Of a stretch of DNA of 64,000 bases, positions 15,527-58,244 are shown in pieces; the first letter of the stretch is position 1; each line of letters starts with the position of its first letter. The position numbers were made by a program, and so were the translations under genes. Where the stretch lies: positions 818,753 through 882,752 of the forward strand of contig MU057560.1 in assembly GCA_013265495.1 (NCBI GenBank). The letters are read 5' to 3'. This DNA comes from Vicugna vicugna. Its lineage: Eukaryota. The notes beneath the pieces were generated by a model. It was given only the letters and a program-made list of their open reading frames with translations, made no database searches and had not been told where the DNA came from.

Positions 15527-17075
15527 TTCTCCCTGTTTTTAACTTTCAATTCAAGTATAACATGCATTATAGGAAAGGACACAAATGCTACCACATACCA
15601 CTGAATTTTAACAAAGGGCACACACTGCACCCGCGGGGACCCCACCGGTGCCCCCCAACTGGCATCTTGTCTCAGCAGCAGGAATTTTGATCCACCACGG
15701 CTAGGCAGCTTTTCCACAGGAGATCAGATGCACCTCACGCAGCATATGCTGTTTTATGCAGGTGGTAGCAAGCATTGCACTGTGAGAAAAATCAATGCAA
15801 AGGAAAACTTAAAATTCTTTACCAAAAGAAGCCTGACTTTTCCTGAGAATTTAGGAAAGACTGCCATTACATAACAGTACTGGGGATTCACCGGGGCCCG
15901 GCTATCGGACGGCAGGGCTGCTGCAGGAGGCTCGGGGACACCGGGCAGATGGCCCCTGACAGCCCGGGGCCCCAGGAAACTCTCTGCGCCTACCTGGCCT
16001 GGGATGTTCCCATGTACATTGTACAGTCCGCTCCTCACTGCAGGGGCGCCCGCCACCCGCTCTGGCCACACCACCTAGGGCCTCTGCTGCCTCCTTTGTC
16101 CCATCTGATGGGTACTCTGGTCTCTGTTATTATGTTCAGGCGCCTTCCTTTTGACTCCAGAGGAAACCTGAACTCATTCTTGTACATTTCCCATTGAGGT
16201 TTCCAGGAGTCTTATGACACTTTCTCCAAGGGGAAGGCTCCGGTGTCTGTCTCCCCCGATGCGTGTCATCCAGTAGGGCCTTGGGTAAGGTCACTTTCAC
16301 ACTCTCTTCCCCCCGACCCCCAACATGACCCACACACATGCACAGCACACACACACTGACTCCGCAGGGCTTGCTGGAGAAGTCCGGGCGACGCCAGCTG
16401 GAAAGGATGAGATGCTGCGGCAGGTGGCTGCACTGCGGAGGACTGTTGTAGAAACCAAACCTACCATCTCACCTTGTGGATGGAGTGGCAGGGCACCTCA
16501 CTGATTCCTGACCTCAGCTGAGTTCATGCCGCTTCCTGTCACCTGGTTGCTCAATGCCTCCCCACCACCCTTCGTGGAGAATTTGCCTCTGACTCGACTC
16601 ATCATTTCCTTCCTTGAAAACAGACTTTTTCTGTGGCAAAAGGGAGATCACCGTTAGCCCTCACCACAACCCCCACACTCTCTGACTCCAGATGTAAAGA
16701 AAGTCTTTGCGCGAACATTTCCCAGAATCAGGAGTAAACTCTGGGAAAGAGAGGGTCTCTGCAGAGCTGCCTGGGTGATGGTCTGGAGAGCCAGGTCAGC
16801 GCCCCGCTCCGCAGTGAACAGGGACCCTTTGCGATCTGTTTTTGGAGTTGTAATTGTTTTTCACGATGAGGATGATTGCTCTGAATTGAAATCTCCTAAT
16901 GAGAGCTGTTCTCTGAGATCACTAAAATCAAAATAACAGGAAGATTCTTTTAAGTTCTGCAGTGGGATTTACCCCAAGACCCATTTTTAAATTTGCAGGC
17001 TTGAATTAGAGGTGATTGCTCCAGTCTTCCAACACAATACTTTTTCCGTGACAAATGACACAGAGAGATCTTACC

Positions 17076-17550
17076 TTTCTGAAGCACCATCTTGCTCACA
17101 AAGAGATGCATGGTGTCTTCACACACGTGCCAGAAAGTGTCGTAAATAATTTCAGTGACGTGCCGCTTGTCCAAGGGCAATACAGAAAGTGCACTTGGTA
17201 ATGAAATACCCATGTGCTTTTATCTTAATCTCCTTAACTTACTGGGGAGCAAAATTTACCAGATGGCTGGTTCTTCCTGCTATTAATAGAAATAGTAAAA
17301 TCTTACCAGGTGTATTTATGTCAACTGTAGTTGACAAATAATGAACATTGTCACCAAATAAGATGTTTCCCTGAAATGAATACATACACACACGCACACA
17401 TATACTCAGTAAGTGTAGAAATATATACATGTATGCGTGTGCACATATTCAGATACACACATGTGAAAAGTGCTAATCGCCTGCGGTTAGGCCCTCCTGG
17501 AACAGTAGCCACAGCAAAGCAGAGCTGACCTGGGGCTCTGCTCCCTCATT
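17076..17550. repeat. Long inverted repeat, left arm
   Basis: Reverse complement of ~18571-19027. 17076-17382 pairs ungapped with 19027-18721 (constant coordinate sum 36103). Confidence 0.95.
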
Positions 17551-18570
17551 CCGAGTGTTTCCAGCTGGTGACGGTGAACACCCTCTGTTTCCCCATGTGG
17601 CCCCTCCCTTGTTCTTCCAACTTCTCGCCTCCTCTTATTTATTTCTTTACTTACTTCCTAACTCCTTTATTATCTATCATTCATCCTGCAGGAGGGACCT
17701 GGGTGACTATTTTTGGAGCACGTCCAGCTGGCTCTGTCCCCCTCGGCCCGAGGCACGCGTGCTCTGCTCTGGGGGGCGTTTATAGGCAGCCGTGAAGCCA
17801 TCACATCGCACGGCCAGCGCAGGTTTTGAGCGAACTCACTTAGCAATGCAGTCACGTGCTTAGCAAAGCCGCAGAAGGGACTCCCGTGAGACGAGACTTT
17901 CGGAGTGAGTCTCTGTGCTCAGGGCTGAGGGCGAGCTGAAGGCCTCGAGGCCCGGAGTTGTGCAAACGTGTGTGAGTCTGCTCCTGGAAATCACGTCCCG
18001 CTGTGGCTGACTGTCCCTGAAACACCAGTGCGCGGCTCACAGCTGTCCCCGGAGCACCAGGAAGTCTCCCTCCTCCATCTGAAGATGTCTACGTGTGCCC
18101 TCCCTCTTCTAAGTGACAAATTTGTGTCACAGTGACTGCAGTAACCATGGCAGCTGAGCCATAATTATTGTACTTAATTCTTTTTCTCAAGACGTCACCC
18201 CATAGTGAGAAGAAGCAGGGCCTGAGGACAGGGTGTGTTTAAGTCCCAGGAGCTAGAACAACCACGCCCGCTAGGGCTTCGCCACGGCAGAGGCCGTGCC
18301 TGCTGTGAGTCCGCTGCGTCCGTCAGGGGGTTTCCGCTTGTGCACATCACTGTCTTCATGGGCATCCAGACCTGATTTTCAAAAATGAAGCTGCAAGGAC
18401 AGATCTATACGGCTTTTGCAGCTAGTAAATAATAGACAGCCAAGATTTGGTGCTAAACCAGGGTCATCATTTGAGACATCCAGAGAAAAATCAAGCTGGT
18501 TTTTGAGAGCAATTCAGACAGAAGTGTTGTGTTTTTACACCTCAACCTTCAGCTCAGCTCAGCTCAGCTC

Positions 18571-19027
18571 AATGTGGGAACAAAGCCCCAGAGTCAGCTC
18601 TGCTGGGACCACTCTCCCAGGAGGGCCTAAAAGCAGGCGATTAGCACTTTTCACGTGTGTGTCGGAATATGTGTACACATACACACGTGTGTATTTCTAA
18701 ACGTACCGAATATCTATATATATTTATTTCAGGGAAACATCTTACTTGATGACAATGTTCATTATTTGTCAACTACCGTTGACATAAATACACCTGGTAA
18801 AATCTTACTATTTCTATTAACAACAGGAAGAACCAACCACCTGGTAAAGTTTGCTCCCCAGTAAATTGAGGAGATTAAGATAAAAGCACATGGAGATGTC
18901 ATTACCAAGTGCAATTTCTTTATTGCCCCTGGACCCATAGAATTTCACTAAAATTGCTTCTGACACTTCCCCGCACACGTGTGAAGATCCCGAGTATCTC
19001 TTTGTGAGCGCGACGGCCCTTCAGAAA
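18571..19027. repeat. Long inverted repeat, right arm
   Basis: See left arm. Also visible as the near-identical ORFs 17239..17430(-) and 18655..18864(+) (FQGNIL..DNVHYLSTTVDINTPGKILLFLL). Confidence 0.95.
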
Positions 19028-21730
19028 TGCGACTCAAAAAAAAAGCATTTGTCTGAAGGAGGACTCATCAGTGTATTTTTGGTTTTGTTGTCCTAGTCTG
19101 TGCTAATCTATTTCTGAGTAATTTAAGGTCCTTTAATTTGAGATTTGAGACAGTTCAGAGAAAAGCCAAAATCTTTTATTTTCATGATTTTCTTAGATTT
19201 GTGCTATCACCGAAAGGGCCAGTTTTGTAATACAGAAAGTAGAAATGCAAACACTCTGCCACATTTTCCATATATAACATTTACTTCAGTGACCAGTCTC
19301 TAATGAAATCAAGATGTGGCTTGTGCTCACAGAAAACTCCATTATTTACAAACTATTTTGACAGGCACGTATAACCCTGATTGAAATAGGGAAGAGAGTA
19401 GATTTCTCTCATCCTGTAAGTTAACTCTTAGTCCCTCCATCTTCATCTGTGCACGAAATCTGAAGACCGACTTGTTACGTTTCTTGAATTCAGTCTTCGT
19501 CACAAGTTCTGGAAGGTAAATGGCTGTAGCCATTTGCTACCTGGATGTCAAGCTCCCCTAACGGGGCGTATTTGGTCTACTTACCATTGAAATGTGAGCT
19601 TACGGAGTAAAATCTATCAAGTGTTGGCCCCAAGCAGATTTTGTTGTTTTTGTTTGTTTATTTTGCTTTTTAATTTTTTTTAACTTCCATTTTCTACTTG
19701 AAGAAAGTAGCTGCTTTTTTTTTTTTGGTAAATCCCTTAAATAGACACATTCTTTAATGTTGAAATCACAAAGCCTTTATATTTAAGACATTTTCTTTTA
19801 CTTAACTGAAACATATGCCTTGAGGGCAAGACAGAAAAGATAAGTTAAATTTGAATCGGACTCGTCAAACACACACACACACACACAATTTTTTAAGTTT
19901 GGTGAATTCAATTACTTTTCATTGCCAACATTATGTATTTCCCAGATTTCAGACTTAAGACCTCACAGTAAAATCTTTTTTTGTTTTATACAATCCATCT
20001 TAATTAACTTATAGCTAAGACGTGCAGGTCTGTTACCACAGTGCCTTAAGAGTCTTAAATCACTGAGCTAAATCTGTTTTAACTGCTGACTTCTGACAGG
20101 GATTCAACTTCCATTTCTGAGCGGTGTTCTGCTCCAGCTTGTGGACACAGCACTGTGTGTGTGTGTAATTCTAAGAATGGATATGGAAATGACAAGCCCG
20201 ATTTCAACATTTTAAAAGATTTTTTGTCTCTCCATTTTAAATATCATCTGTATATGTACACACACACACACACTCACAGCTAGACCCCAAAGTGTAAAAA
20301 CAAACTAGAGTTGGCTGGTCTGTTGGTCCCAGATAAGGAGTCAAGTGAATGGCAATTTGCATTTCCGCACATGCAAATTCATGTTCAGATCGCCTTTCTT
20401 TGTTTAACTTGGCTCTTTAAGGACTGTGTTCTTGAAATCTGTGCCAGGCGGTTGGGAGAGAAGTTTTCCACAGTCCCAGGCCCGGCAAGGGTGCAGCTTA
20501 GAGTACATAGTGAAAAGCAGGAGAAGTAAATAAATACATACATGTAAATAAAGGTTATTTTTTTTAAATGGCTCCTTTCTCATGGCTGTGTTTTTGGGAA
20601 GGTTTGCTATGCGCCCCCTTCCCCATGACTGCCCATCACCTCCATCCCTTCTCCTGTGGAGACAGGACAGGAGCCGCACCTTCCGGCACTGGCTTTGGCT
20701 CCGGCATCTTTTTCCTGCGACCCCTCCCCAGGGGGCACACTCATCCCCAGCCTGTCCCGCGGGGCCCCGCTGCACACATGCAAGGAGCCCACTGGGTCCG
20801 GGCCCCCTGAGGAACCTGGCCCCTGGTGCATTCCCAAGCGGAGATAAAGGTACTAACAGTGTGCTAACAATATGCTAATTAGAAAAGTGTCTTTTGAGCT
20901 GTTGGGAAAGTCCAGAAAATGAAGTATTTCAAAAGTGAGGATTTCTCAGAGAGTCCCCAGGTAGAGGCTGTGTGTGGACAGTGGCTTGACTGGTCAGTCT
21001 GCTTCTCGAGGCTTCCATCTCTTTGTTGGCTGTGAGCATGGGGTGACCGGGACGCATCACTTCCAAGACACCTCCAGGCTCCAGCATCCTCTGGTCCTTT
21101 CCTGAATCTGCATAGAACTTACCTTCCTTGCATTTCACATGTTTCTGGAGCTAAAGGCAAGTCGGGGTTGTGTGAGAAGGTGAAGCCTGCGGACAAGCCT
21201 CTGTCACAGCTGCCCAGCAGGTCAGGGGTCCTGCGTCACCCCGTTGCCCTTGTGCTGGGCCAGGTCCCCTGAGATGGGAGCTGGGGGGCCACTGCAGTGG
21301 GTGCCCCAGGCCCCTCACTGAGGCCATATCATTCACAAGGTTCTTCTGAGGGTCCTGAGACGAGTTACAATCACTGCTGATGCGCCAATGCATCCGCCTT
21401 CTCAGAAAGCAAGGGTGCATTTGAGCAGTGGTCTGAGCTCTCCAAAGTGACTTCACTTCTGTGAGTTCCTCACCGCATCGCAGAGCTATGGGGAGGAGGT
21501 GACTGAAGCTGGATGGCGGGCTTGGCTGTGCCGTGTGCACCCCCTCACCATGCAGACCAGGTAAAGGGTGGGGGCAGGTTAGGCAAGGAAGGGATGCGCT
21601 GTGATGGACAATGCGGTTTCCTGGGACCCTGTCTAGTTTCACTTTTAATAGAAGCCTGCCTCTGAAGTATTACAATTAGGAATATTGGTGAGGTTTTGGA
21701 AAAGGGTAAACACATTACCTAAAAGATAAG

Positions 21731-25760: not shown

Positions 25761-26699
25761 GATCTTAGAAAATTCATAGCATTTCCTAGGTTGATTATAA
25801 GAACAAGAGAATATTTATTGAAAAAGAGCTATAGTTAACTGGAAAGCAATGTGTGTCTAGACTTTGATGTGTGTCAAAGACCTCTTGAGTTAGAAGCAAA
25901 GCTTGTTTAAGATGCGAACTCCTGGATCCACCACAGCCTGCAGAAAAAGAATGTCTGTGGTGGGACCCAGACATCCAGGTAGTGACCAAGCCCTCCTGGA
26001 GATTCTGCTACACGATATAGACTCTGCTGCCTTGGAGGGAAGATGACTGGGCGAGGGGTCAGGGGAGCTGAGTCCTGGACAGAGCTTTTCCTCCTGGGTC
26101 CTGTAAACGGATGCCTTTGGAGGAGATGACATTTAACCACCCTTTCAGTGCCCTCAGTTACTCTCACCAGTTACTGTGATGCAAGTAAGTAACACAAACA
26201 ACTGCATCTCTCTTACCTACATGGTAGTTTATGGTGCTTTATACTGATGCTCCCAATCGGAGCAAGTTAGAACAAATACAAAAGCATGACAGTTATTCAG
26301 CAGAGAACACGATCCAGTCATCAGAGAACATCAAAGAAACCAAGAATCGTCTGGGCAGAAGGAGAGGGTGAGTGGTCGCCATCTCACATGGGCTGGGGGA
26401 GGCTGTCTGAGAGACCTGTGCGCCTGCCCAGGGCGCTCGCTGGCGGTTGCTTGAGCTGCATTAAATTTATGGAGCGAAAAGAAATCCAGGTCAGCTCAGG
26501 CTTTTCCCCCTCCTGACTGTAAAGGTTTTGCCGGTAATCCCTTGCTTTGTGTGATTTTTTTTTTTTTCACGTGCGTTGAAGACTGTTTAAACAAGCCAAG
26601 ACATACCCCTTTTGTCCGAGTAGCTGCAGAGAGCGTTTGTGAAAGTAAACTCATTAAGAACGTGTTTTCAGAAGGTCTCCGTGTAGGACGGTGAAAAAT

Positions 26700-27270
26700 C
26701 GAGAGAGAGGATGTGTCGTCTGGGTAAAGGAAGCCGACTTGCGAGCTGGGTAGAATGTTCACGACCAGCCTCCTCTCCGTGTGTCTGATCGTCAGCCTGC
26801 CGCCGGCTCCGCCCGCGCTGCGCCCGGGGCCGGGGGTCCTGGCGCCTGGATGCGGCGACAGCGAACTGCGCGCCCAGGGCTGCCCGGCGGCACCGCGCAC
26901 GCCGGTGTTAACCTCCGCTGCAGGAAATACGGTCTTCCAGCCCGCCGCTGGCTCTGGCCGCCTGAATGTTGACTGTGGGTAAAAACTGCGGGGATTTACA
27001 CTCAGATATGTAATAAATGCTTTCTTAGCGATCCTGGGGAAATCATGCGTATATGGCCCAAGCCCCAGGCAAGCACGGTTGTAAATGCCATTTGCGAACC
27101 CAAGAGTTTCTTCTCTGGCAAGAAATGCATGCCAGTTTTGGCGGGATAGTTTCAGTTTGCAGCTCATTTGCACTTGGGAGCTTCTGGGTCGATTGCTGGG
27201 GGCGGGGTTCTCCAGACGGTTCGGGTCATTCCTGACTACGACGCGGCGTACCTCGGACTGTGTGCGTCAG
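26700..27270. promoter_or_regulatory. CpG island / candidate promoter
   Basis: Dense CpG, GC box (GGCTCCGCCC at ~26805), non-repetitive. The 225-aa minus ORF across it has no recognisable homology. Confidence 0.6.
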
Positions 27271-27992
27271 AGAAGCTGAGGTCTGCATTGTGTTTGGGAA
27301 TCACGTGTTTTAATGTTAATCGAAGGAATGAGTCCACTCTATTTTCGATGTTTTTACTTTTTTAAAAATTCTTTTTGAAGAGTTGTATTAGACTCACAGA
27401 GCACTCCACTCACCGAAAAAGATACGATTTTATTTTATCACATATCACTGTCCTTTATCTAAGAAAGAAAGATTGGTTGGAGAACTCTCTGGGAACTTTT
27501 TTTAATTTGAATGAAGCTCAGCGTGGGGCTAAGCAAGGCAGGGGGCTGCTGTGCGGAGGTGCGGGTCTGCTCGCCCAGTGACCAGGTAGGTGAGCTTGGA
27601 CGGCTCACTGGCTTCCAGCCTCAGTTTCCTCAGTTTGAAGGGAAAGTGTGCACTGTATAAAATGATCAGGATGAAATTCGGTGGAAGCCTCATTGAGACC
27701 AAGGCACGACCTCCCATGACTGTTTCTGGTCTGAGTCAGTGACAGCAGGATGCTGACACTGGTCCAGCTCTCCAGCCTCTGGGGTGAACGTGGCAAGCGT
27801 GCCTCAGGTCATCTGAACACTGAACGGGATGGGTGTTCCGGGTCCGCCTTAGCTCACACGTCACCCTTCACTGGAGTCGTGCCGACTCCTACGGGAGGAG
27901 CTACAGGTGAACCGGTGTCTCCTCAGAAGATGGTTGTTCCTCTTGGTCATCTGATTTTTCCCAGATGCCAAGTCCTGCTTCCCAGGTGGTGC

Positions 27993-28525
27993 TGAGGTAG
28001 GAAGCCCCATGAAAAAGACAGGCAGGACCCCCAGGCAGGGCCACTACTCTCCTGCCGGCACCATCCGGTTCCCTGGCCCAGGGGCATTATCTTGCTTTTT
28101 AAACTTTGAAACGGCTTACTCCTAGGAAAGCGGAACTTACCCCGAAGATTTTATCGGTTCCCTGAGCTCACTCCTGATTGTTCCATTTGTGGTGCTGCAT
28201 TTGCAAGGAGCTCACTCCTGATTGGTCCATTTCCCTCACTTCTGATTGGTCCGTTTCTACAAAGCTTGCTCCTAATTAGTCACCTTTGTTATACTTTATT
28301 TGCATATGATGTTACAAAATGTTGCAAAGGCTAGACTGGTAAACTATAAATGCCTGTATAAACCTACAGACGGGGTCCAGAGCTTGGAGCGTTAACTCCT
28401 CTGGGCCCGCTGGCATAATAAACCTGAGTTCTCCAACTCTGAGTGCTGCTTGGTCTCTCGCCCGGATCCAGGTTGTTGTCACAACTGAGCTATAACTCTG
28501 AGCTGTAACACACTTTGCTTCAACA
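27993..28525 (+). mobile_element. Solo endogenous-retrovirus LTR (ERV1-type, 533 bp)
   Basis: Starts TG, ends CA, and is flanked by a GTGC 4-bp TSD (27989-27992, 28526-28529). Contains repeated CTGATTG(G) inverted CCAAT motifs, TATAAA at ~28345 and ~28357, and AATAAA at 28417-28422. Confidence 0.85.
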
Positions 28526-36487: not shown

Positions 36488-38240
36488 AGACTGACCTTCA
36501 ATAATGCATTTTTTTGAATGCCCTATTTGGTCTGATCATTTCCTGAAAACTGCTCATGTGATACCATCTTTCCAAAGCCCTGGGGGAAGAAAAAATCAAA
36601 CGAATTACAGTGGAACTTGGAAAGAAATGGAATGAAATGTAATTGAATATGCTCTCTGAGCAATACACAGTGCATTAAAAGGCCCGGCGATTAGGGAGCG
36701 AGCAGTGAGCCCTCAAACAGGGCTGCGTGCAAATTAGGCGGGGCCTCCATCAGTGAGGGTGGAAATCCTGCCAGATCAGGTGTTTCCACGCTGCGGGAGA
36801 GAGTCCTCGCTCGCACAGAGCTCCCCTCCTGGTCCATCTTGCACGCCCCTGTTGATGGTGCCTCATCAGAGGAAACCATTTAAAAGGGACTCCTGTGGCC
36901 AATGGACTTGTTTTTTCCCTGAATCATCACACTTGATATTGAATTAATTTCTACAGCTTCTACCTTTTGAAAGCAAGAAAATACGGTGAACAGAACAATG
37001 CCCTGCAAGTGCAGAGTAAGTGAAGACGGAGGAGGAGAAAGCAGGAGGTAGAAGACGCTCGTGCACATGAGTGATCGGGTTGAGCTTCTGTTTCCTTGTT
37101 GGATCTTTGTTATTTTCATTTATTTCACTTTCATATTTTCAAAATGGGGTCGAAGATTGAAAATCACATAATCTGGCAGTTTCAAATATTTTTAAGACCA
37201 CCTTTCCTCCCAACATAGAAAAGATAAAAAAGGAAGTGATCTGTCTATGCTGCCTTGTGAAAACCTGCACAGGAGATGCTCTTTACATCCAACGGGCAGA
37301 GCGATGGTTCTCACAGTGAGATCTGAGCTGGTCACTGCATCTCTTCTGTGAGATGGGAGTGCAGACAGAGGGGGAGAGAAGACATTCTGCTTGGAATCAG
37401 TGGAAATTGGAGTGTCTTTGGGATGTCAGTGTGGACCTGCATAATCAGAGTCAAAGGCTTACGACAGATTCTACTTCGTCTCTGGGCCATCTGCCCATGG
37501 AGGGTGACTGAAGTCCTCTGAGTACATGGCAACCACCCAGGAGGACTGTGTTCAGAGAAAGAAGAGGCGTGCCGGTGGAATCCCAGAATGTATTTCAGAA
37601 TGCAGTGCTTTGGCAGAGGGGAAAACGAAGGCCAGGATGGAGTGGCCAAAAGTCAGCATAGGAACCAGGAGGTGTGGATTCTAAGAAGCGGGGAGGACAA
37701 GTTTAAGAACAAGCCAGTGGGAAGGGAGAAGCTCTGGGTGCAGGAGAAGGGAACAGCTTTCCTAGATCCAGGTCCCGCAGAAGCAGGAGGACCAGCTCCT
37801 CCTGACGTGCGGGAGGCAGCAGCGGTGACGCCTCCTTCACGTGAAGGACGAGGGCGCTGTTTGGCGGTGCTTACCTGGCTTTGAGCCAGTCGGCTGCGTG
37901 CCACGAATCCCTACACTTTCAAATATTGTCTACTTTCAAATGGAAGCAATCCAGGGGTTCTGATCATTTTAATAAGATACAGACAGTGATAATATGAAAT
38001 GCGGAGCCCAAAGGGCAGGACCACATATGGCTGTTTTCTCTGCTCCTAGCGATGTCGCCACGCGGAGGACATAGATGCCTGTGCAGTGAAGGAGCTCCTT
38101 CCATCCTTCTTCTCCAGGGAGTGTGCATTGTTGTTCCAAACAAGTTACAAGTTCATTGAGCGTAGCTGATAAGGGGAGAAGTTCTTTTTATGAAGCCCTC
38201 AAACCAGGGCTCCAAAAATATTTAATGGAATGCTTGGCTC
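36488..38240 (+). repeat. Direct duplication, copy 1 (1753 bp)
   Basis: Matches 38751-40503 at constant offset 2263 with about 13 substitutions and no indel seen. Confidence 0.97.
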
Positions 38241-38750: not shown

Positions 38751-40503
38751 AGACTGACCTTCAATAATGCATTTTTTTGAATGCCCTATTTGGTCTGATC
38801 ATTTCCTGAAAACTGCTCATGTGATACCATCTTTCCAAAGCCCTGGGGGAAGAAAAAATCAAACGAATTACAGTGGAACTTGGAAAGAAATGGAATGAAA
38901 TGTAATTGAATATGCTCTCTGAGCAATACACAGTGCATTAAAAGGCCCGGCGATTAGGGAGCGAGCAGTGAGCCCTCAAACAGGGCTGCGTGCAAATTAG
39001 GCGGGGCCTCCATCAGTGAGGGTGGAAATCCTGCCAGATCAGGTGTTTCCACGCTGCGGGAGAGAGTCCTCGCTCGCACAGAGCTCCCCTCCTGGTCCAT
39101 CTTGCACGCCCCTGTTGCTGGTGCCTCATCAGAGGAAACCATTTAAAAGAGACTCCTGTGGCCAATGGACTTTTTTTTTCCCTGAATCATCACACTTGAT
39201 ATTGAATTAATTTCTACAGCTTCTACCTTTTGAAAGCAAGAAAATACGGTGAACAGAACAATGCCCTGCAAGTGCAGAGTAAGTGAAGACGGAGGAGGAG
39301 AAAGCAGGAGGTAGAAGACGCTCGTGCACATGAGTGATCGGGTTGAGCTTCTGTTTCCTTGTTGGATCTTTGTTATTTTCATTTATTTCACTTTCATATT
39401 TTCAAAATGGGGTCGAAGATTGAAAATCACATAATCTGGCAGTTTCAAATATTTTTAAGACCACCTTTCCTCCCAACATAGAAAAGATAAAAAAGGAAGT
39501 GATCTGGCTATGCTGCCTTGTGAAAACCTGCACAGGAGATGCTCTTTACATCCAACGGGCAGAGCGATGGTTCTCACAGTGAGATCTGAGCTGGTCACTG
39601 CATCTCTTCTGTGAGATGGGAGTGCAGACAGAGGGGGAGAGAAGACATTCTGCTTGGAATCAGTGGAAATTGGAGTGTCTTTGGGATGTCAGTGTGGACC
39701 TGCATAATCAGAGTCAAAGGCTTACGACAGATTCTACTTCGTCTCTGGGCCATCTGCCCATGGAGGGTGACTGAAGTCCTCTGAGTACATGGCAACCACC
39801 CAGGAGGACTGTGTTCAGAGAAAGAAGAGGTGTGACGGTGGAATCCCAGAATGTATTTCAGAATGCAGTGCTTTGGCAGAGGGGAAAACGAAGGCCAGGA
39901 TGGAGTGGCCAAAAGTCAGCATAGGAACCAGGAGGTGTGGATTCTAAGAAGCGGGGAGGACAAGTTTAAGAACAAGCCAGTGGGAAGGGAGAAGCTCTGG
40001 GTGCAGGAGAAGGGAACAGCTTTCCTAGATCCAGGTCCCGCAGAAGCAGGAGGACCAGCTCCTCCTGACGTGCGGGAGGCAGCAGCGGTGATGCCTCCTT
40101 CACGTGAAGGACGAGGGCGCTGTTTGGCGGTGCTTACCTGGCTTTGAGCGAGTCGGCTGCGTGCCACGAATCCCTACACTTTCAAATACTGTCTACTTTC
40201 AAATGGAAGCAATCCAGGGATTCTGATCATTTTAATAAGATACAGACGGTGATAATATGAAATGCGGAGCCCAAAGGGCAGGACCACATGTGGCTGTTTT
40301 CTCTGCTCCTAGCGGTGTCGCCACGCGGAGGACATAGATGCCTGTGCAGTGAAGGAGCTCCTTCCATCCTTCTTCTCCAGGGAGTGTGCATTGTTGTTCC
40401 AAACAAGTTACAAGTTCATTGAGCGTAGCTGATAAGGGGAGAAGTTCTTTTTATGAAGCCCTCAAACCAGGGCTCCAAAAATATTTAATGGAATGCTTGG
40501 CTC
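38751..40503 (+). repeat. Direct duplication, copy 2 (1753 bp)
   Basis: Begins at the first base after the gap; its partner ends at the last base before the gap. Confidence 0.97.
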
Positions 40504-41903: not shown

Positions 41904-42024
41904 CCTTTTGTGGGGGGAGGCTCATTAAATTGATTGACTTATTCCTCCATTCAGTGGAGGCACTGGGGCTTGAACCCAGGGCCTCGTGCTCAGCATGTGC
42001 TCTGCCACTGAGCTCCACCCTCCC
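41904..42024 (-). mobile_element. Camelid Vic-1-like SINE
   Basis: Reverse complement reads GGGAGGGTGGAGCTCAGTGGCAGAGCACATGCTGAGCACGAGGCCCTGGGTTCAAGCCCCAGTGCCTCC...CCTCCCCCC. Confidence 0.85.
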
Positions 42025-55542: not shown

Positions 55543-56029
55543 CTGGTGGTGTAGTATTCCTGAATAAATAAATGCATGAAATGGTTTAAATAATAAGAAA
55601 GAACCAGAATTTCTTGATCACTTTGCTGTGAAAATTGCATTTCCTCTTAAAACTGGAAGTCCTCCGGGGGTGAAAAACAAAAGTCAAATGGAAGAATAAC
55701 AAAGTTGGAAAAGAAACATTTATTTAAATATTAAAAGTGAATATTTGTAAATGTTCTTTTTCTCTACAGGAGTCAAAAAGTTATCCTTAAATTAGCAAGA
55801 TAAAAAAAGCGAGAACAAGAACAAAACTTGGCTCTCGTCATGCGTCCTTTAAAAGTAGATCTTCCTTAAACCAAGTATAGCATTTCGGATATTTCAACGG
55901 TTTTGTTTTGCGCATCAAGAAAACCCGTGTTACTAAAGAACTTTTAAAAATCTCTCTTAACTTACTGATGTTGACATCAAGGTAAATTGGCACCAAGCAG
56001 CGCAAAACGACGTGTTTCACAATTAGGAG

Positions 56030-56600
56030 CGGAAACCGGCAGGGTTCTCAGCTCCGGGTTGGTCTGCGTGGTTTGGCTGCTGCACGACGACCCCTCGGGG
56101 CCCCTCTGAGGAAGGTGCCCGTGAGCATCAGGACGAGCACCTGCGCCCCGAGCTGCAGCCCAGCTGCTCGCCGGCGCCCGCGCCCGGAGGCCTGCCCGGG
56201 GGTGGCGCCCAGCCCCGCCCGCCCCCGCGCACCCAAGGCCTCGGGGCCCAGCCTCCTCCCCCGCGTCCGCGAGCTCCTCCGGGTCCCGGCGGCCGGGCCG
56301 CCCCCTCCCCCGCCGAACAGCTGGGACGCGCTCACTCCTCCGGGCGCGGCGGGGCCTGCGCCGAACGGACCGCTGCTCAAAGCGTTCCCCAGCGCGGGCC
56401 TCCGAGGGGTCAGACTGCAGGACTTCGGTCCAGCCCCAAAGGCCAACAAGCGCGCGCCCTCGGGGGCCCTAAGCTCCGGCCGAGGTGCAGGGCTGGGAGC
56501 CATGCCGCCCCTTCTTGGCCTCCGGGACCGCGTGGGACAGGCAACCCCTGTGACCCTGCAGTCTGGTTGTCTGGGGCCCTCTCCGTCGCCAGGCCCACTT
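56030..56600. promoter_or_regulatory. CpG island / candidate promoter (strongest in the window)
   Basis: Very GC- and CpG-dense, with GC boxes (CCCCGCCC ~56212, CCCCTCCCCCGCC ~56302) and an ETS-like CGGAA at ~56030. Overlapping ORFs are low-complexity Pro/Ala/Gly/Arg. Confidence 0.75.
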
Positions 56601-58244
56601 CCTGCTCGGACCTGAAGGGCTGACCCCAAAGCCAAGTGGGGTTTTGGATCCTGAGCAGCACAAATGGTCTTAGTTTTCCTTCTGAAGTGTTCAGATGGTC
56701 CCTTTGCTCAGACTCAGGACACCCCTCGGCCCTCCCGCTGCAGGGGGGCCCGATGCCAGATCCCGAGGCTGCACAGAACAGCCTGGGCTTCAGCAACAGT
56801 TGAGAAACCCCCTCTGGAAAGCCTGGCCGCCCCCGACTGACGGCCATGTAGCCCCCGTTCCTGCCACCCCCCTCCTAGAAGTGTCTGGTACTGCTAAGTG
56901 AGAAAAGGCAGGTGACAAAGTTGTACCAAAACAAATTGCCTTTTTGTGGTTTATTTGTCAATAAGTAGGACATAAAGTTGTATTTCTGGAAAGAAGTGGG
57001 GAAAAAGAATCAAGACAGACATGCACTACAATGTCAGCAGTGGTTTCTCTGGGTGGTGAGTAGTGTGCGTGTATGTATATATATATTATATATAGGGGTA
57101 AGTTTTCAGCAATGTCTGTATGCTACTTTTATAACGGAAATGCATAATACGATTTACTAACGTTGGCTTTTTGTTCTGAACTCTGGGAAGAGGAGGAGAA
57201 ACTGCCTCTACACGCTAAGCAGAAGGCTTGACTTGGAGCTTAAGAGACTCTTCCGAATTAGGAATTCGGACTGACGGCTGGAACTGCAGGTGGGGAGCCT
57301 GCTCTTTTGTTTCCAGGTAAGCTTCTCCATCAGAATCACAATGATGCCTCCCAGGGAAGTGAGACCCTGAGATCCCGGACTGAATAGCAAATGCAGAGCT
57401 CACCTCCCCCACCTCAACCTAAGAAGTAACAGAAAAGAAGAAAGTCTTCCTCCTGAATGTCAATTAACACAGTTAACATAAACAGACACTAAAATGTCCT
57501 AACCCTCATTACCAAAGTAACAATTTCTGATTAAGTTGATAAAGCCTTTTTTTAACTCTTGCCTGGTATCTTTTTTCTCTCCTTCCTTCCTACATCTGGA
57601 AAATCTCAGTGGAACCTTAAGCAAGTGAGGCAATGATTTACCATTGCATTCGAATATCTGCGAATGTCTACAAGCCCAGAAAAATACAGTCCCTGGTAAG
57701 AGCCGTATTGGTTCAATGTGTTGGTTCAATCTGTTTGCTTCACTGAGTGATTCATAAGGATCAATATGGAAAACTTTGTTTTGAGTGAAATTCTTTTTTA
57801 TTCCAGTGAGTCAGATCTATCTGATTACATATGTAAGAGTATCTACTAGATTAAATGTGACACATACAAATTTATAAATCTCAATTATTTAATACATGCT
57901 AATATATAAGAAACATATATTACTTTAAATATCTCAAGAGAAGCTGTCAGGCTTTTATAGGCTTTTTTACCTTTAACTTGAGGCTTGGATCAAAGGTATA
58001 ATAGCCCATACCCTAAAAAATGCATGTCAATTGCAAATAAAGAAATAAATAAATGAATGAATAAATTATAAATATGAATAAATTATTGATAAATAATGTG
58101 GTAGCCATGATCTCTAAATGTATTTAACTTCCATGTGAGACATTTGAAAAATCAGTGCTGGAAAATGACTAAATGAGGTTTCCTTGATCAGGGTGAAATC
58201 AACATTTGAAAATCCAAAGAAAAACAAAACTTAAAAAACAAGTG

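What the first reader, a model, noticed from the sequence alone, without database searches (positions are those of the whole stretch)
17076..19027. Long inverted repeat of non-repeat-family DNA (~460-475-bp arms, ~1-kb spacer) with an identity peak in its core
Seen: 17076-17382 pairs without gaps with 19027-18721, and homology continues inward with small gaps to ~17550/~18571. The core (17211-17382 vs 18721-18892) has 13 mismatches in 172 nt (~92%), while the outer and inner parts are clearly more diverged (roughly 75-80% by eye). The arms resemble no SINE, LINE, LTR or DNA transposon I know, and I see no TSD. Inference: an old inverted duplication whose centre is held similar by selection (RNA duplex or paired cis-element) or by arm-to-arm gene conversion. 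A neutral duplication should decay more evenly.
Basis: partly seen in the sequence, partly recalled or inferred. Interest (0 to 1): 0.75.

Follow-up and report, generated by a model that had tools for sequence, protein, structure and literature searches.

The report
Old inverted duplicate, candidate RNA hairpin
A single-copy stretch of non-coding camelid DNA was duplicated back-to-front long ago, and the differences between the two copies lean towards those that would still let an RNA made from one strand fold into a long double helix, a moderate hint of selection on an RNA hairpin that no transcript data yet confirm.

Summary
The inverted repeat is real: arms 17076-17550 and 18571-19027, 383 of 456 columns identical, 13 mismatches in the 172-nt core. 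One contig spans it, and whole-genome contigs show no further arm copies. The identity peak is weaker than it looks: p 0.016 raw, about 0.08 after allowing for CpG and GC content. 33 of 48 transitions would be G-U wobbles in minus-strand RNA (p 0.013; LINE control 81 of 157). Pair-breaking mismatches fall from 36/284 to 4/172 in the core, while wobbles barely fall. This gives 71- and 51-bp unbroken helices, fits duplex selection better than conversion, and agrees with clustered minus-strand donor-like sites and a G-C skew switch at 20.8 kb. Against: no RNA evidence, no orthologues, no host gene, nine minus-strand poly(A) signals, and several post-hoc tests. Best reading (0.45): a non-repetitive intramolecular dsRNA of a known kind, under selection. 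The scan noted similar dead inverted exon copies (HCFC1, NKPD1) elsewhere in this genome, not this locus.

The parts
17076..17550 (-). left arm (3' arm of a minus-strand RNA); carries four donor-like sites and one acceptor-like site on the minus strand
18571..19027 (-). right arm (5' arm of a minus-strand RNA); probably the derived copy (inference: simple repeats at both junctions, donor-like sites weaker)
17211..17382 (-). core, left side: 13 of 172 mismatches to 18721-18892, 9 of them G-U compatible on the minus strand; 33% GC, no CpG
18721..18892 (-). core, right side
17255..17325 (-). longest predicted helix, 71 bp (6 G-U), pairing with 18778-18848
17327..17377 (-). second helix, 51 bp (2 G-U), pairing with 18726-18776; one transversion separates it from the first
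17383..17460 (.). (CA/TA)-rich low-complexity zone holding the 12-nt gap between the arms; source of sub-threshold Rfam miRNA hits
17551..18570 (.). 1020-nt spacer; 53% GC, 40 CpG; 17551-18200 is a borderline CpG island (GC 54%, o/e 0.63)
17070..17078 (-). strong donor-like site (score 11.2 on a rough matrix; last exon base 17075), one base beyond the outer end of the left arm, absent from the right arm
17307..17370 (-). exon-like unit (acceptor 7.7, donor 9.1; further donors at 17260 and 17243); the open frame has no protein homologue
20355..20835 (.). possible upstream start region (inferred): opposed octamer pair at 20355 and 20371, and global minimum of the cumulative G-C walk at 20835

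Best explanation
Shown: a roughly 470-bp single-copy segment was duplicated in inverted orientation 1 kb away, long ago (K2P 0.14-0.31 between arms; some tens of millions of years at a recalled rate of about 2e-9 per site per year). Shown: the differences between the arms are polarised, so that RNA from the minus strand would pair far better than RNA from the plus strand. Inferred: a minus-strand transcript (non-coding or intronic, starting somewhere right of 19027, perhaps near 20.4-20.8 kb) runs through both arms and folds into a ~450-bp stem with a 1-kb loop, and selection has removed pair-breaking substitutions from the central ~170 bp while tolerating G-U wobbles. Inferred, weaker: the duplex acts in the nucleus as an ADAR substrate and/or masks the acceptor and internal donors of the exon-like unit in the left arm.
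For: 33 of 48 transitions are G-U compatible on the minus strand (p 0.013; non-CpG 26 of 35, one-sided 0.003). The result holds without the microsatellite zone (26:11, p 0.020) or the two donor +5 sites (31:15, p 0.026). Duplex energy is -648 (minus) against -574 kcal/mol (plus); 0 of 100 polarity-flipped shuffles reach that gap. Pair-breaking mismatches are 4/172 in the core against 36/284 in the flanks, wobbles 9/172 against 24/284 (p 0.26); heterogeneity of pair-breaking sites p 0.008 for minus and 0.18 for plus. Nine LINE 3'-end copies in the window show no such polarity (81 of 157; Fisher 0.046, non-CpG 0.022; 20 non-independent inverted pairs range 0.36-0.59). Published intronic asymmetry (A>G/T>C 1.4-1.7, PMC2817419 section 13) predicts only 0.52-0.56 (P 0.012-0.053). 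Core log-likelihood -5.6/-4.6 against -8.0/-8.7 for conversion and -8.2/-8.9 for one-arm constraint. Indirect hints of minus-strand transcription: 11 donor-like sites on minus in 16001-18000, the highest 2-kb bin of either strand, and the G-C walk minimum at 20835 (p 0.026).
Against: The statistics rest on 12-48 mismatches, the polarity was first seen by eye, and several tests were run without correction. Core-versus-flank class composition alone is p 0.070 (0.054 non-CpG). With mismatch positions fixed and classes permuted, the long helices are reached at p 0.082, and the core energy gap alone at p 0.063. The outer 120 columns show no polarity (11:8). Poly(A) signals in 16001-20000 number 9 on minus and 0 on plus, two of them inside the right arm, the opposite of the pattern of a stable minus-strand transcript. 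T-A skew is positive on plus in most 1-kb bins from 10 to 30 kb. Polymorphism is not lower in the core (1 of 19 sites in 344 of 4261 bp, p 0.54), and that one allele (17243, run X14) breaks a pair. No host gene was found (none of 435 ORFs passes a Pfam cut-off). Long dsRNAs are generally selected against, above all in mature mRNA (PMC7006430, passages).
Confidence: 0.45

Rival explanations
1. Only the left arm is constrained (an exon of a minus-strand non-coding transcript, or a DNA element), and the right arm is a dead inverted copy. Core divergence is then half that of the flanks, and the polarity comes from chance plus local transcription-linked mutation bias.
For: Non-CpG divergence is 12/170 in the core against 41/248 in the flanks, almost exactly half. 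All four left-arm donor-like sites outscore their right-arm paralogues (9.1/6.0, 7.5/6.1, 7.4/4.2, 11.2/-1.9), and a donor of 11 or more lies at an arm end (rough P 0.009, post hoc). Both A>G and C>T excesses occur within 1-2 kb downstream of mammalian start sites (PMC2927911 section 5). Earlier scan notes describe dead inverted exon copies in this genome (unchecked).
Against: Fits the core classes worse than the duplex model by 2.6-4.3 log units (predicts about 5 transversions, 1 seen). Published asymmetries give P 0.012-0.053 for the polarity. The open frame has no protein homologue.
Confidence: 0.22
2. Neutral decay: the AT-rich, CpG-free core simply mutates more slowly, and the remaining peak and the polarity are chance.
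For: Stratified permutation p 0.08, non-CpG p 0.14. No drop in polymorphism. No transcript or gene is known here. Non-repetitive inverted matches are numerous in mammals (about half a million predicted in human, 4,597 edited; PMC11838218 passages).
Against: Flank rates applied to the core give log-likelihood -13.9/-14.6 (boundaries chosen post hoc). Polarity p 0.013, LINE control flat.
Confidence: 0.15
3. Arm-to-arm gene conversion or template switching re-homogenised the central 170-290 bp once or repeatedly.
For: A step-like rise in identity from about 17170 inward (sliding table). Homogenisation of inverted-repeat arms is a known process (PMC8604942 passages; PMC3723533 search listing only). 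At 3 of 5 polymorphic arm sites the other allele matches the opposite arm.
Against: Conversion should lower all mismatch classes alike; the core keeps wobbles and loses pair-breaking changes (log-likelihood 2.5-4.2 lower than duplex). The longest identical run is 27 nt, so nothing is recent. Two of the three matching alleles (18606, 18614) have unconverted mismatches 2 nt away, which suits plain ancestral alleles better than tracts. No spacer inversion in 3 of 3 informative runs.
Confidence: 0.13
4. The pairing is in single-stranded DNA rather than RNA: a strand-biased hairpin in which G-T mismatches persist and others are corrected against the opposite arm.
For: Would give the same polarity and the same depletion of other mismatches; the G-C skew switch at 20835 could be a replication origin rather than a promoter (PMC2817419 abstract).
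Against: Needs about 2 kb of single-stranded DNA; template switching is described for short spacers (70 nt or less searched in PMC8604942). No test here separates it from the RNA model.
Confidence: 0.05

Closest known systems
Non-repetitive intramolecular dsRNAs of the human dsRNAscan catalogue (PMC11838218; passages and section 11 read)
   Same: Two complementary single-copy arms with a loop of about 1 kb; high share of paired bases; predicted energy and contiguous helix at or above those of edited members.
   Different: Much longer than the medians given (144 bp and 30 contiguous bp for edited non-repetitive; 65 bp for conserved) at about 450 bp and 71 contiguous bp; the (CA/TA) zone might class it as repetitive by their rule; transcription and editing not shown here.
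Pairs of conserved complementary regions, PCCRs (PMC8052449; passages read), and editing-complementary sequences of ADAR targets (recalled)
   Same: Long-range pairing across about 1 kb, overlapping splice-site-like motifs, tolerant of G-U.
   Different: Far longer and more stable than typical PCCRs, plainly born by inverted duplication; no vertebrate conservation, covariation or host gene shown.
Inverted duplicated sequences in pre-mRNA (PMC7006430; passages read)
   Same: BLAST-detectable inverted duplicate over 300 bp.
   Different: 84% identical, below the >96% class reported as purged; that work treats such structures as a load, here the hint is of positive maintenance.
Dead inverted copies of exons (earlier scan notes on HCFC1 and NKPD1; unchecked AI notes)
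   Same: Inverted single-copy duplicate that includes splice-site-like motifs, stronger in one copy.
   Different: Here the mismatch spectrum is strand-polarised and no coding exon is identifiable.
Inverted repeats homogenised by conversion or template switching (PMC8604942 passages; Y palindrome P6, PMC3723533 listing only)
   Same: Inverted arms with a zone of higher identity.
   Different: No near-identical tract (longest run 27 nt), AT-rich core, class-biased mismatches.

Membership tests
Dispersed repeat pair (SINE, LINE, LTR, DNA transposon TIRs) | Further copies elsewhere in the genome | tested here: not met
   At 80% likeness, whole-genome contigs of X1, X17 and X14 add no depth over 17007-17408 or 18615-19016, while 43-45-nt pieces at about 80% pile up at 19638-19690; slight extra depth in 17409-17609, the bin with the low-complexity zone. 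Copies under 80% alike would be missed.
Dispersed repeat pair (SINE, LINE, LTR, DNA transposon TIRs) | Match to a Dfam/Repbase consensus | not testable with these tools
   No repeat library on hand.
Assembly artefact | Near-identical arms, not spanned by independent data | tested here: not met
   84% identity; spanned by one X14 contig.
Non-repetitive intramolecular dsRNA / ADAR substrate | Long complementary arms within 10 kb | tested here: met
   Duplex -648 kcal/mol, 71- and 51-bp helices.
Non-repetitive intramolecular dsRNA / ADAR substrate | Both arms in one transcript | tested here: inconclusive
   Only indirect and conflicting signs: donors and G-C skew for, poly(A) signals and T-A skew against.
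Non-repetitive intramolecular dsRNA / ADAR substrate | A-to-I editing on the arms | not testable with these tools
   No RNA run was available to lay.
Conserved complementary regions (PCCR / ECS) | Cross-species conservation with compensatory changes | not testable with these tools
   No other mammalian genome reachable; paralogous G-U excess is only a proxy.
Conserved complementary regions (PCCR / ECS) | Lies in a protein-coding pre-mRNA | tested here: inconclusive
   None of 435 ORFs of 60 aa or more passes a Pfam cut-off; short exons or a long intron are not excluded.
Known structured RNA family (Rfam) | Match at gathering score | tested here: not met
   Only a tRNA-like hit at 41955 in the window; 8 sub-threshold hits in 16500-19600, 6 on the low-complexity zone.
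Converted inverted repeat | Uniform lowering of all mismatch classes, near-identical tract | tested here: inconclusive
   Class composition core versus flank p 0.054-0.070; longest identical run 27 nt.
Converted inverted repeat | Arms cluster by species in a tree | not testable with these tools
   No orthologues beyond near-identical camelid runs.
Processed retrocopy | Spliced junction, poly(A) tail and TSD | tested here: not met
   Flanks of the right arm match no other minus-strand segment better than controls; an A10 run lies 8 nt beyond the arm, but no poly(A) signal precedes it and no TSD is visible.

The most novel reading that the evidence does not exclude
An inverted duplication was kept as a built-in cis-antisense mask: the upstream copy pairs over 122 nearly unbroken base pairs with an exon-like unit of the same transcript, hiding its acceptor and two internal donors while the strongest donor sits one base outside the duplicated arm. 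It would be a long, non-repeat, positively maintained dsRNA switch in a mammal, whose selection can be read from the G-U polarity of paralogous differences alone, without orthologues.
Probability: 0.12. Interest if true: 0.75.

Novelty: new member of a known kind. Interest (0 to 1): 0.45.

Why it matters
Long dsRNA in mammals is mostly repeat-derived and treated as a load that selection removes (PMC7006430, passages), and conserved non-repetitive duplexes are short (median 65 bp, PMC11838218, passages). A ~450-bp single-copy duplex with signs of maintained pairing would be an unusual counter-example and a ready test substrate for ADAR, splicing and dsRNA-sensor work. The wobble-polarity test on paralogous arms could also be run genome-wide to sort selected duplexes from converted or dead ones. 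If the rivals hold, it is an ordinary old inverted duplication.

Tried and rejected
No whole genome is held. Host gene: 435 of 435 stop-to-stop ORFs of 60 aa or more scanned against Pfam gave 4 hits, all under the curated cut-offs; the IL6Ra-bind hit at 1450-1803 found no related structure. Coding exon in the arm: 21-aa frame against PDB, one chance hit; 43-aa frame against longer proteins, 8 candidates and none at E 10 or better (weak evidence); ESM Atlas best 0.80, bacterial hypotheticals. Rfam: nothing at gathering score. Longer palindrome or retrocopy junction: no homology beyond the arms; a shared 8-mer about 19 nt outside the arms is not significant (p 0.20). Local hairpins inside the core: z -1.3 to -2.2. 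Sequencing runs: no RNA holder listed, which says nothing about expression; run X11 gave no contig over the repeat and none of the 4 runs gave a long contig over 19861-21600, not used as evidence. Two exact-match scans of metagenome contigs for host DNA of other mammals found 0 loci each. Earlier findings: none near, none by sequence, none by words. Paper searches listed no paper on this locus, but without a gene name or human coordinates they cannot show that it is not in print. The dsRNAscan tables of non-repetitive edited dsRNAs, which might list an orthologue, were not among the held supplements (one PDF listed, not read).

Full report
Observation. Arms 17076-17550 and 18571-19027 align over 476 columns, with 383 of 456 ungapped columns identical; the core has 13 mismatches in 172, the outer part 34 in 135 and the inner part 26 in 149. 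Homology stops at those ends. It is not an assembly product: a 4384-nt contig of run X14 spans 15600-19860, and X1 and X17 cover it in two contigs each, in the same orientation and with no strand-switching joint; X11 gave no contig there. Twenty of 24 listed runs, from 7 studies and two coded organisms, hold most of the stretch.

Copy number. Laid at 80% likeness, whole-genome contigs of three runs add no depth over 17007-17408 or 18615-19016, although the same call picks up dozens of 43-45-nt pieces at a T-rich tract near 19640-19690. The arms are therefore single-copy down to about 80% identity. No repeat library could be searched. Rfam has nothing at gathering score.

The identity peak. A scan-statistic permutation gives p 0.016 over all columns and 0.001 over the outer 311. 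The core, however, is 33% GC with 0-1 CpG, and the flanks are 44-47% GC with 4-6 CpG. Permuting within CpG, GC and AT classes gives p 0.082 and 0.076, and non-CpG columns alone p 0.14. The peak by itself is thus marginal, and much of the inner divergence lies in a (CA/TA) zone (17461-17550 is 87% identical).

Strand polarity. Each transition between arms is a G-U wobble in RNA of one strand and an A-C mismatch in the other. 33 of 48 are wobbles on the minus strand (p 0.013), 26 of 35 outside CpG. The excess survives leaving out the microsatellite zone or the two donor +5 sites, and is absent from the outer 120 columns (11:8). The minus-strand duplex is 74 kcal/mol more stable, a gap that 0 of 100 polarity-flipped shuffles reach; for the core alone 19 of 300 do. 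Pair-breaking mismatches fall from 36/284 in the flanks to 4/172 in the core, while wobbles go from 24/284 to 9/172 (p 0.26); pair-breaking sites are non-uniform for the minus strand (p 0.008) but not for the plus strand (p 0.18). The result is a 71-bp and a 51-bp unbroken helix separated by one transversion. With mismatch positions fixed and classes permuted, helices that long arise at p 0.082, so the helices are not independent evidence.

Controls for mutation bias. Nine LINE 3'-end copies across the window, polarised against their column majority, give 81 of 157 transitions of the minus-wobble type (72 of 139 non-CpG); the repeat differs from this at Fisher p 0.046 and 0.022. None of these copies lies within 2.9 kb of the arms, so a strictly local bias is not covered. 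Published transcription-linked asymmetry (A>G/T>C 1.4-1.7 in introns, PMC2817419 section 13; a local C>T excess within 1-2 kb of start sites, PMC2927911 section 5; the 1.2 ratio I used for it is recalled) predicts a share of 0.52-0.56 and P 0.012-0.053. On the 12 non-CpG core mismatches (9 wobble, 2 A-C, 1 transversion), log-likelihoods are -5.6/-4.6 for duplex selection, -8.0/-8.7 for conversion, -8.2/-8.9 for constraint on one arm and -13.9/-14.6 for neutrality at flank rates. The strand was chosen after seeing the data and the counts are small.

Is the minus strand transcribed? No RNA run could be laid, so only sequence hints remain, and they conflict. For: on a rough, recalled splice matrix the minus strand of 16001-18000 has 11 donor-like sites, the highest 2-kb bin of either strand, and 34 of 6076 overlapping 481-bp windows match the left arm's five; U1 sites are enriched in the sense direction downstream of promoters (PMC6172195 passages); the cumulative G-C walk has its minimum at 20835 (p 0.026), beside an opposed octamer pair at 20355/20371. 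Against: poly(A) signals in 16001-20000 number 9 on minus and 0 on plus, two in the right arm; T-A skew is mostly positive on plus; and the spacer is itself a borderline CpG island, so a start inside it would leave the right arm out of the transcript. No coding host was found.

Exon-like unit. The left arm reads on the minus strand as an acceptor at 17370 with donors at 17307, 17260, 17243 and 17075, the last one base beyond the arm end. Each donor is weaker or lost in the right arm. The open frame has no homologue, and the 64-nt candidate ranks 27th of 77 such candidates in the window. This supports either a masking role for the duplex or the rival in which only the left arm is functional; non-CpG core divergence (12/170) is about half that of the flanks (41/248), as that rival predicts.

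Polymorphism. Three runs show 19 substitution sites in 4261 bp, 5 in the arms and 1 in the core, no different from even spread. The core allele breaks a pair; three others restore a match to the opposite arm and one creates a minus-strand wobble. Two of the three restoring alleles have unconverted mismatches 2 nt away, so they do not show conversion.

Mechanism and comparison. Most likely (0.45), a minus-strand RNA folds the arms into a long nuclear duplex whose centre is kept paired by selection; the duplication and the polarity are shown, while transcription, folding in cells and any function are inferred. It would work like the non-repetitive dsRNAs of PMC11838218 and the long-range pairings of PMC8052449 (passages read), being longer than the medians given there; membership is unproven, as transcription, editing and covariation are untested. 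Rivals: one-arm constraint with a dead copy (0.22), neutral decay with composition and chance (0.15), conversion (0.13), DNA-level hairpin repair (0.05). Supplementary tables of PMC11838218 that might list an orthologue were not held.

Verdict. Observation confirmed, interpretation partly supported, new member of a known kind, interest 0.45. The boldest reading not excluded, a duplicated cis-antisense mask over an exon with alternative donors, gets probability 0.12.

Noticed in passing
window 36488-38240 and 38751-40503: 1753-bp direct duplicate at 99.3% on either side of a 510-N gap: almost certainly an unmerged haplotype overlap in the assembly, not a real duplication.
   Followed up: no
window 20355-20378: Two perfect octamer motifs in opposed orientation 16 nt apart (10 such motifs in the whole window), close to the G-C skew switch at 20835; candidate POU-factor enhancer or promoter (motif identity recalled).
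   Followed up: partly
window 26351-27300 and 55801-56750: The two clearest CpG islands of the window, with no Pfam-detectable coding exon nearby; possible promoters of non-coding or distant genes.
   Followed up: no
window 17322-17339: Small internal palindrome (7-bp stem, 4-nt loop) kept in both arms, with the single transversion between the two long helices falling in its loop.
   Followed up: partly
window 18550-18570 and 19036-19045: A 5-nt tandem repeat abuts the inner end and an A10 run lies 8 nt beyond the outer end of the right arm, suggesting that it is the inserted copy.
   Followed up: partly
window 18606 and 18614: Two transversion polymorphisms 8 nt apart; each other allele matches the left arm, but in different runs (X17 and X14), giving three of four haplotypes without the doubly matching one. 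Unexplained.
   Followed up: partly
window 28130-28510: LTR-like segment with a 24-nt internal duplication at 28211-28257; identification recalled.
   Followed up: no
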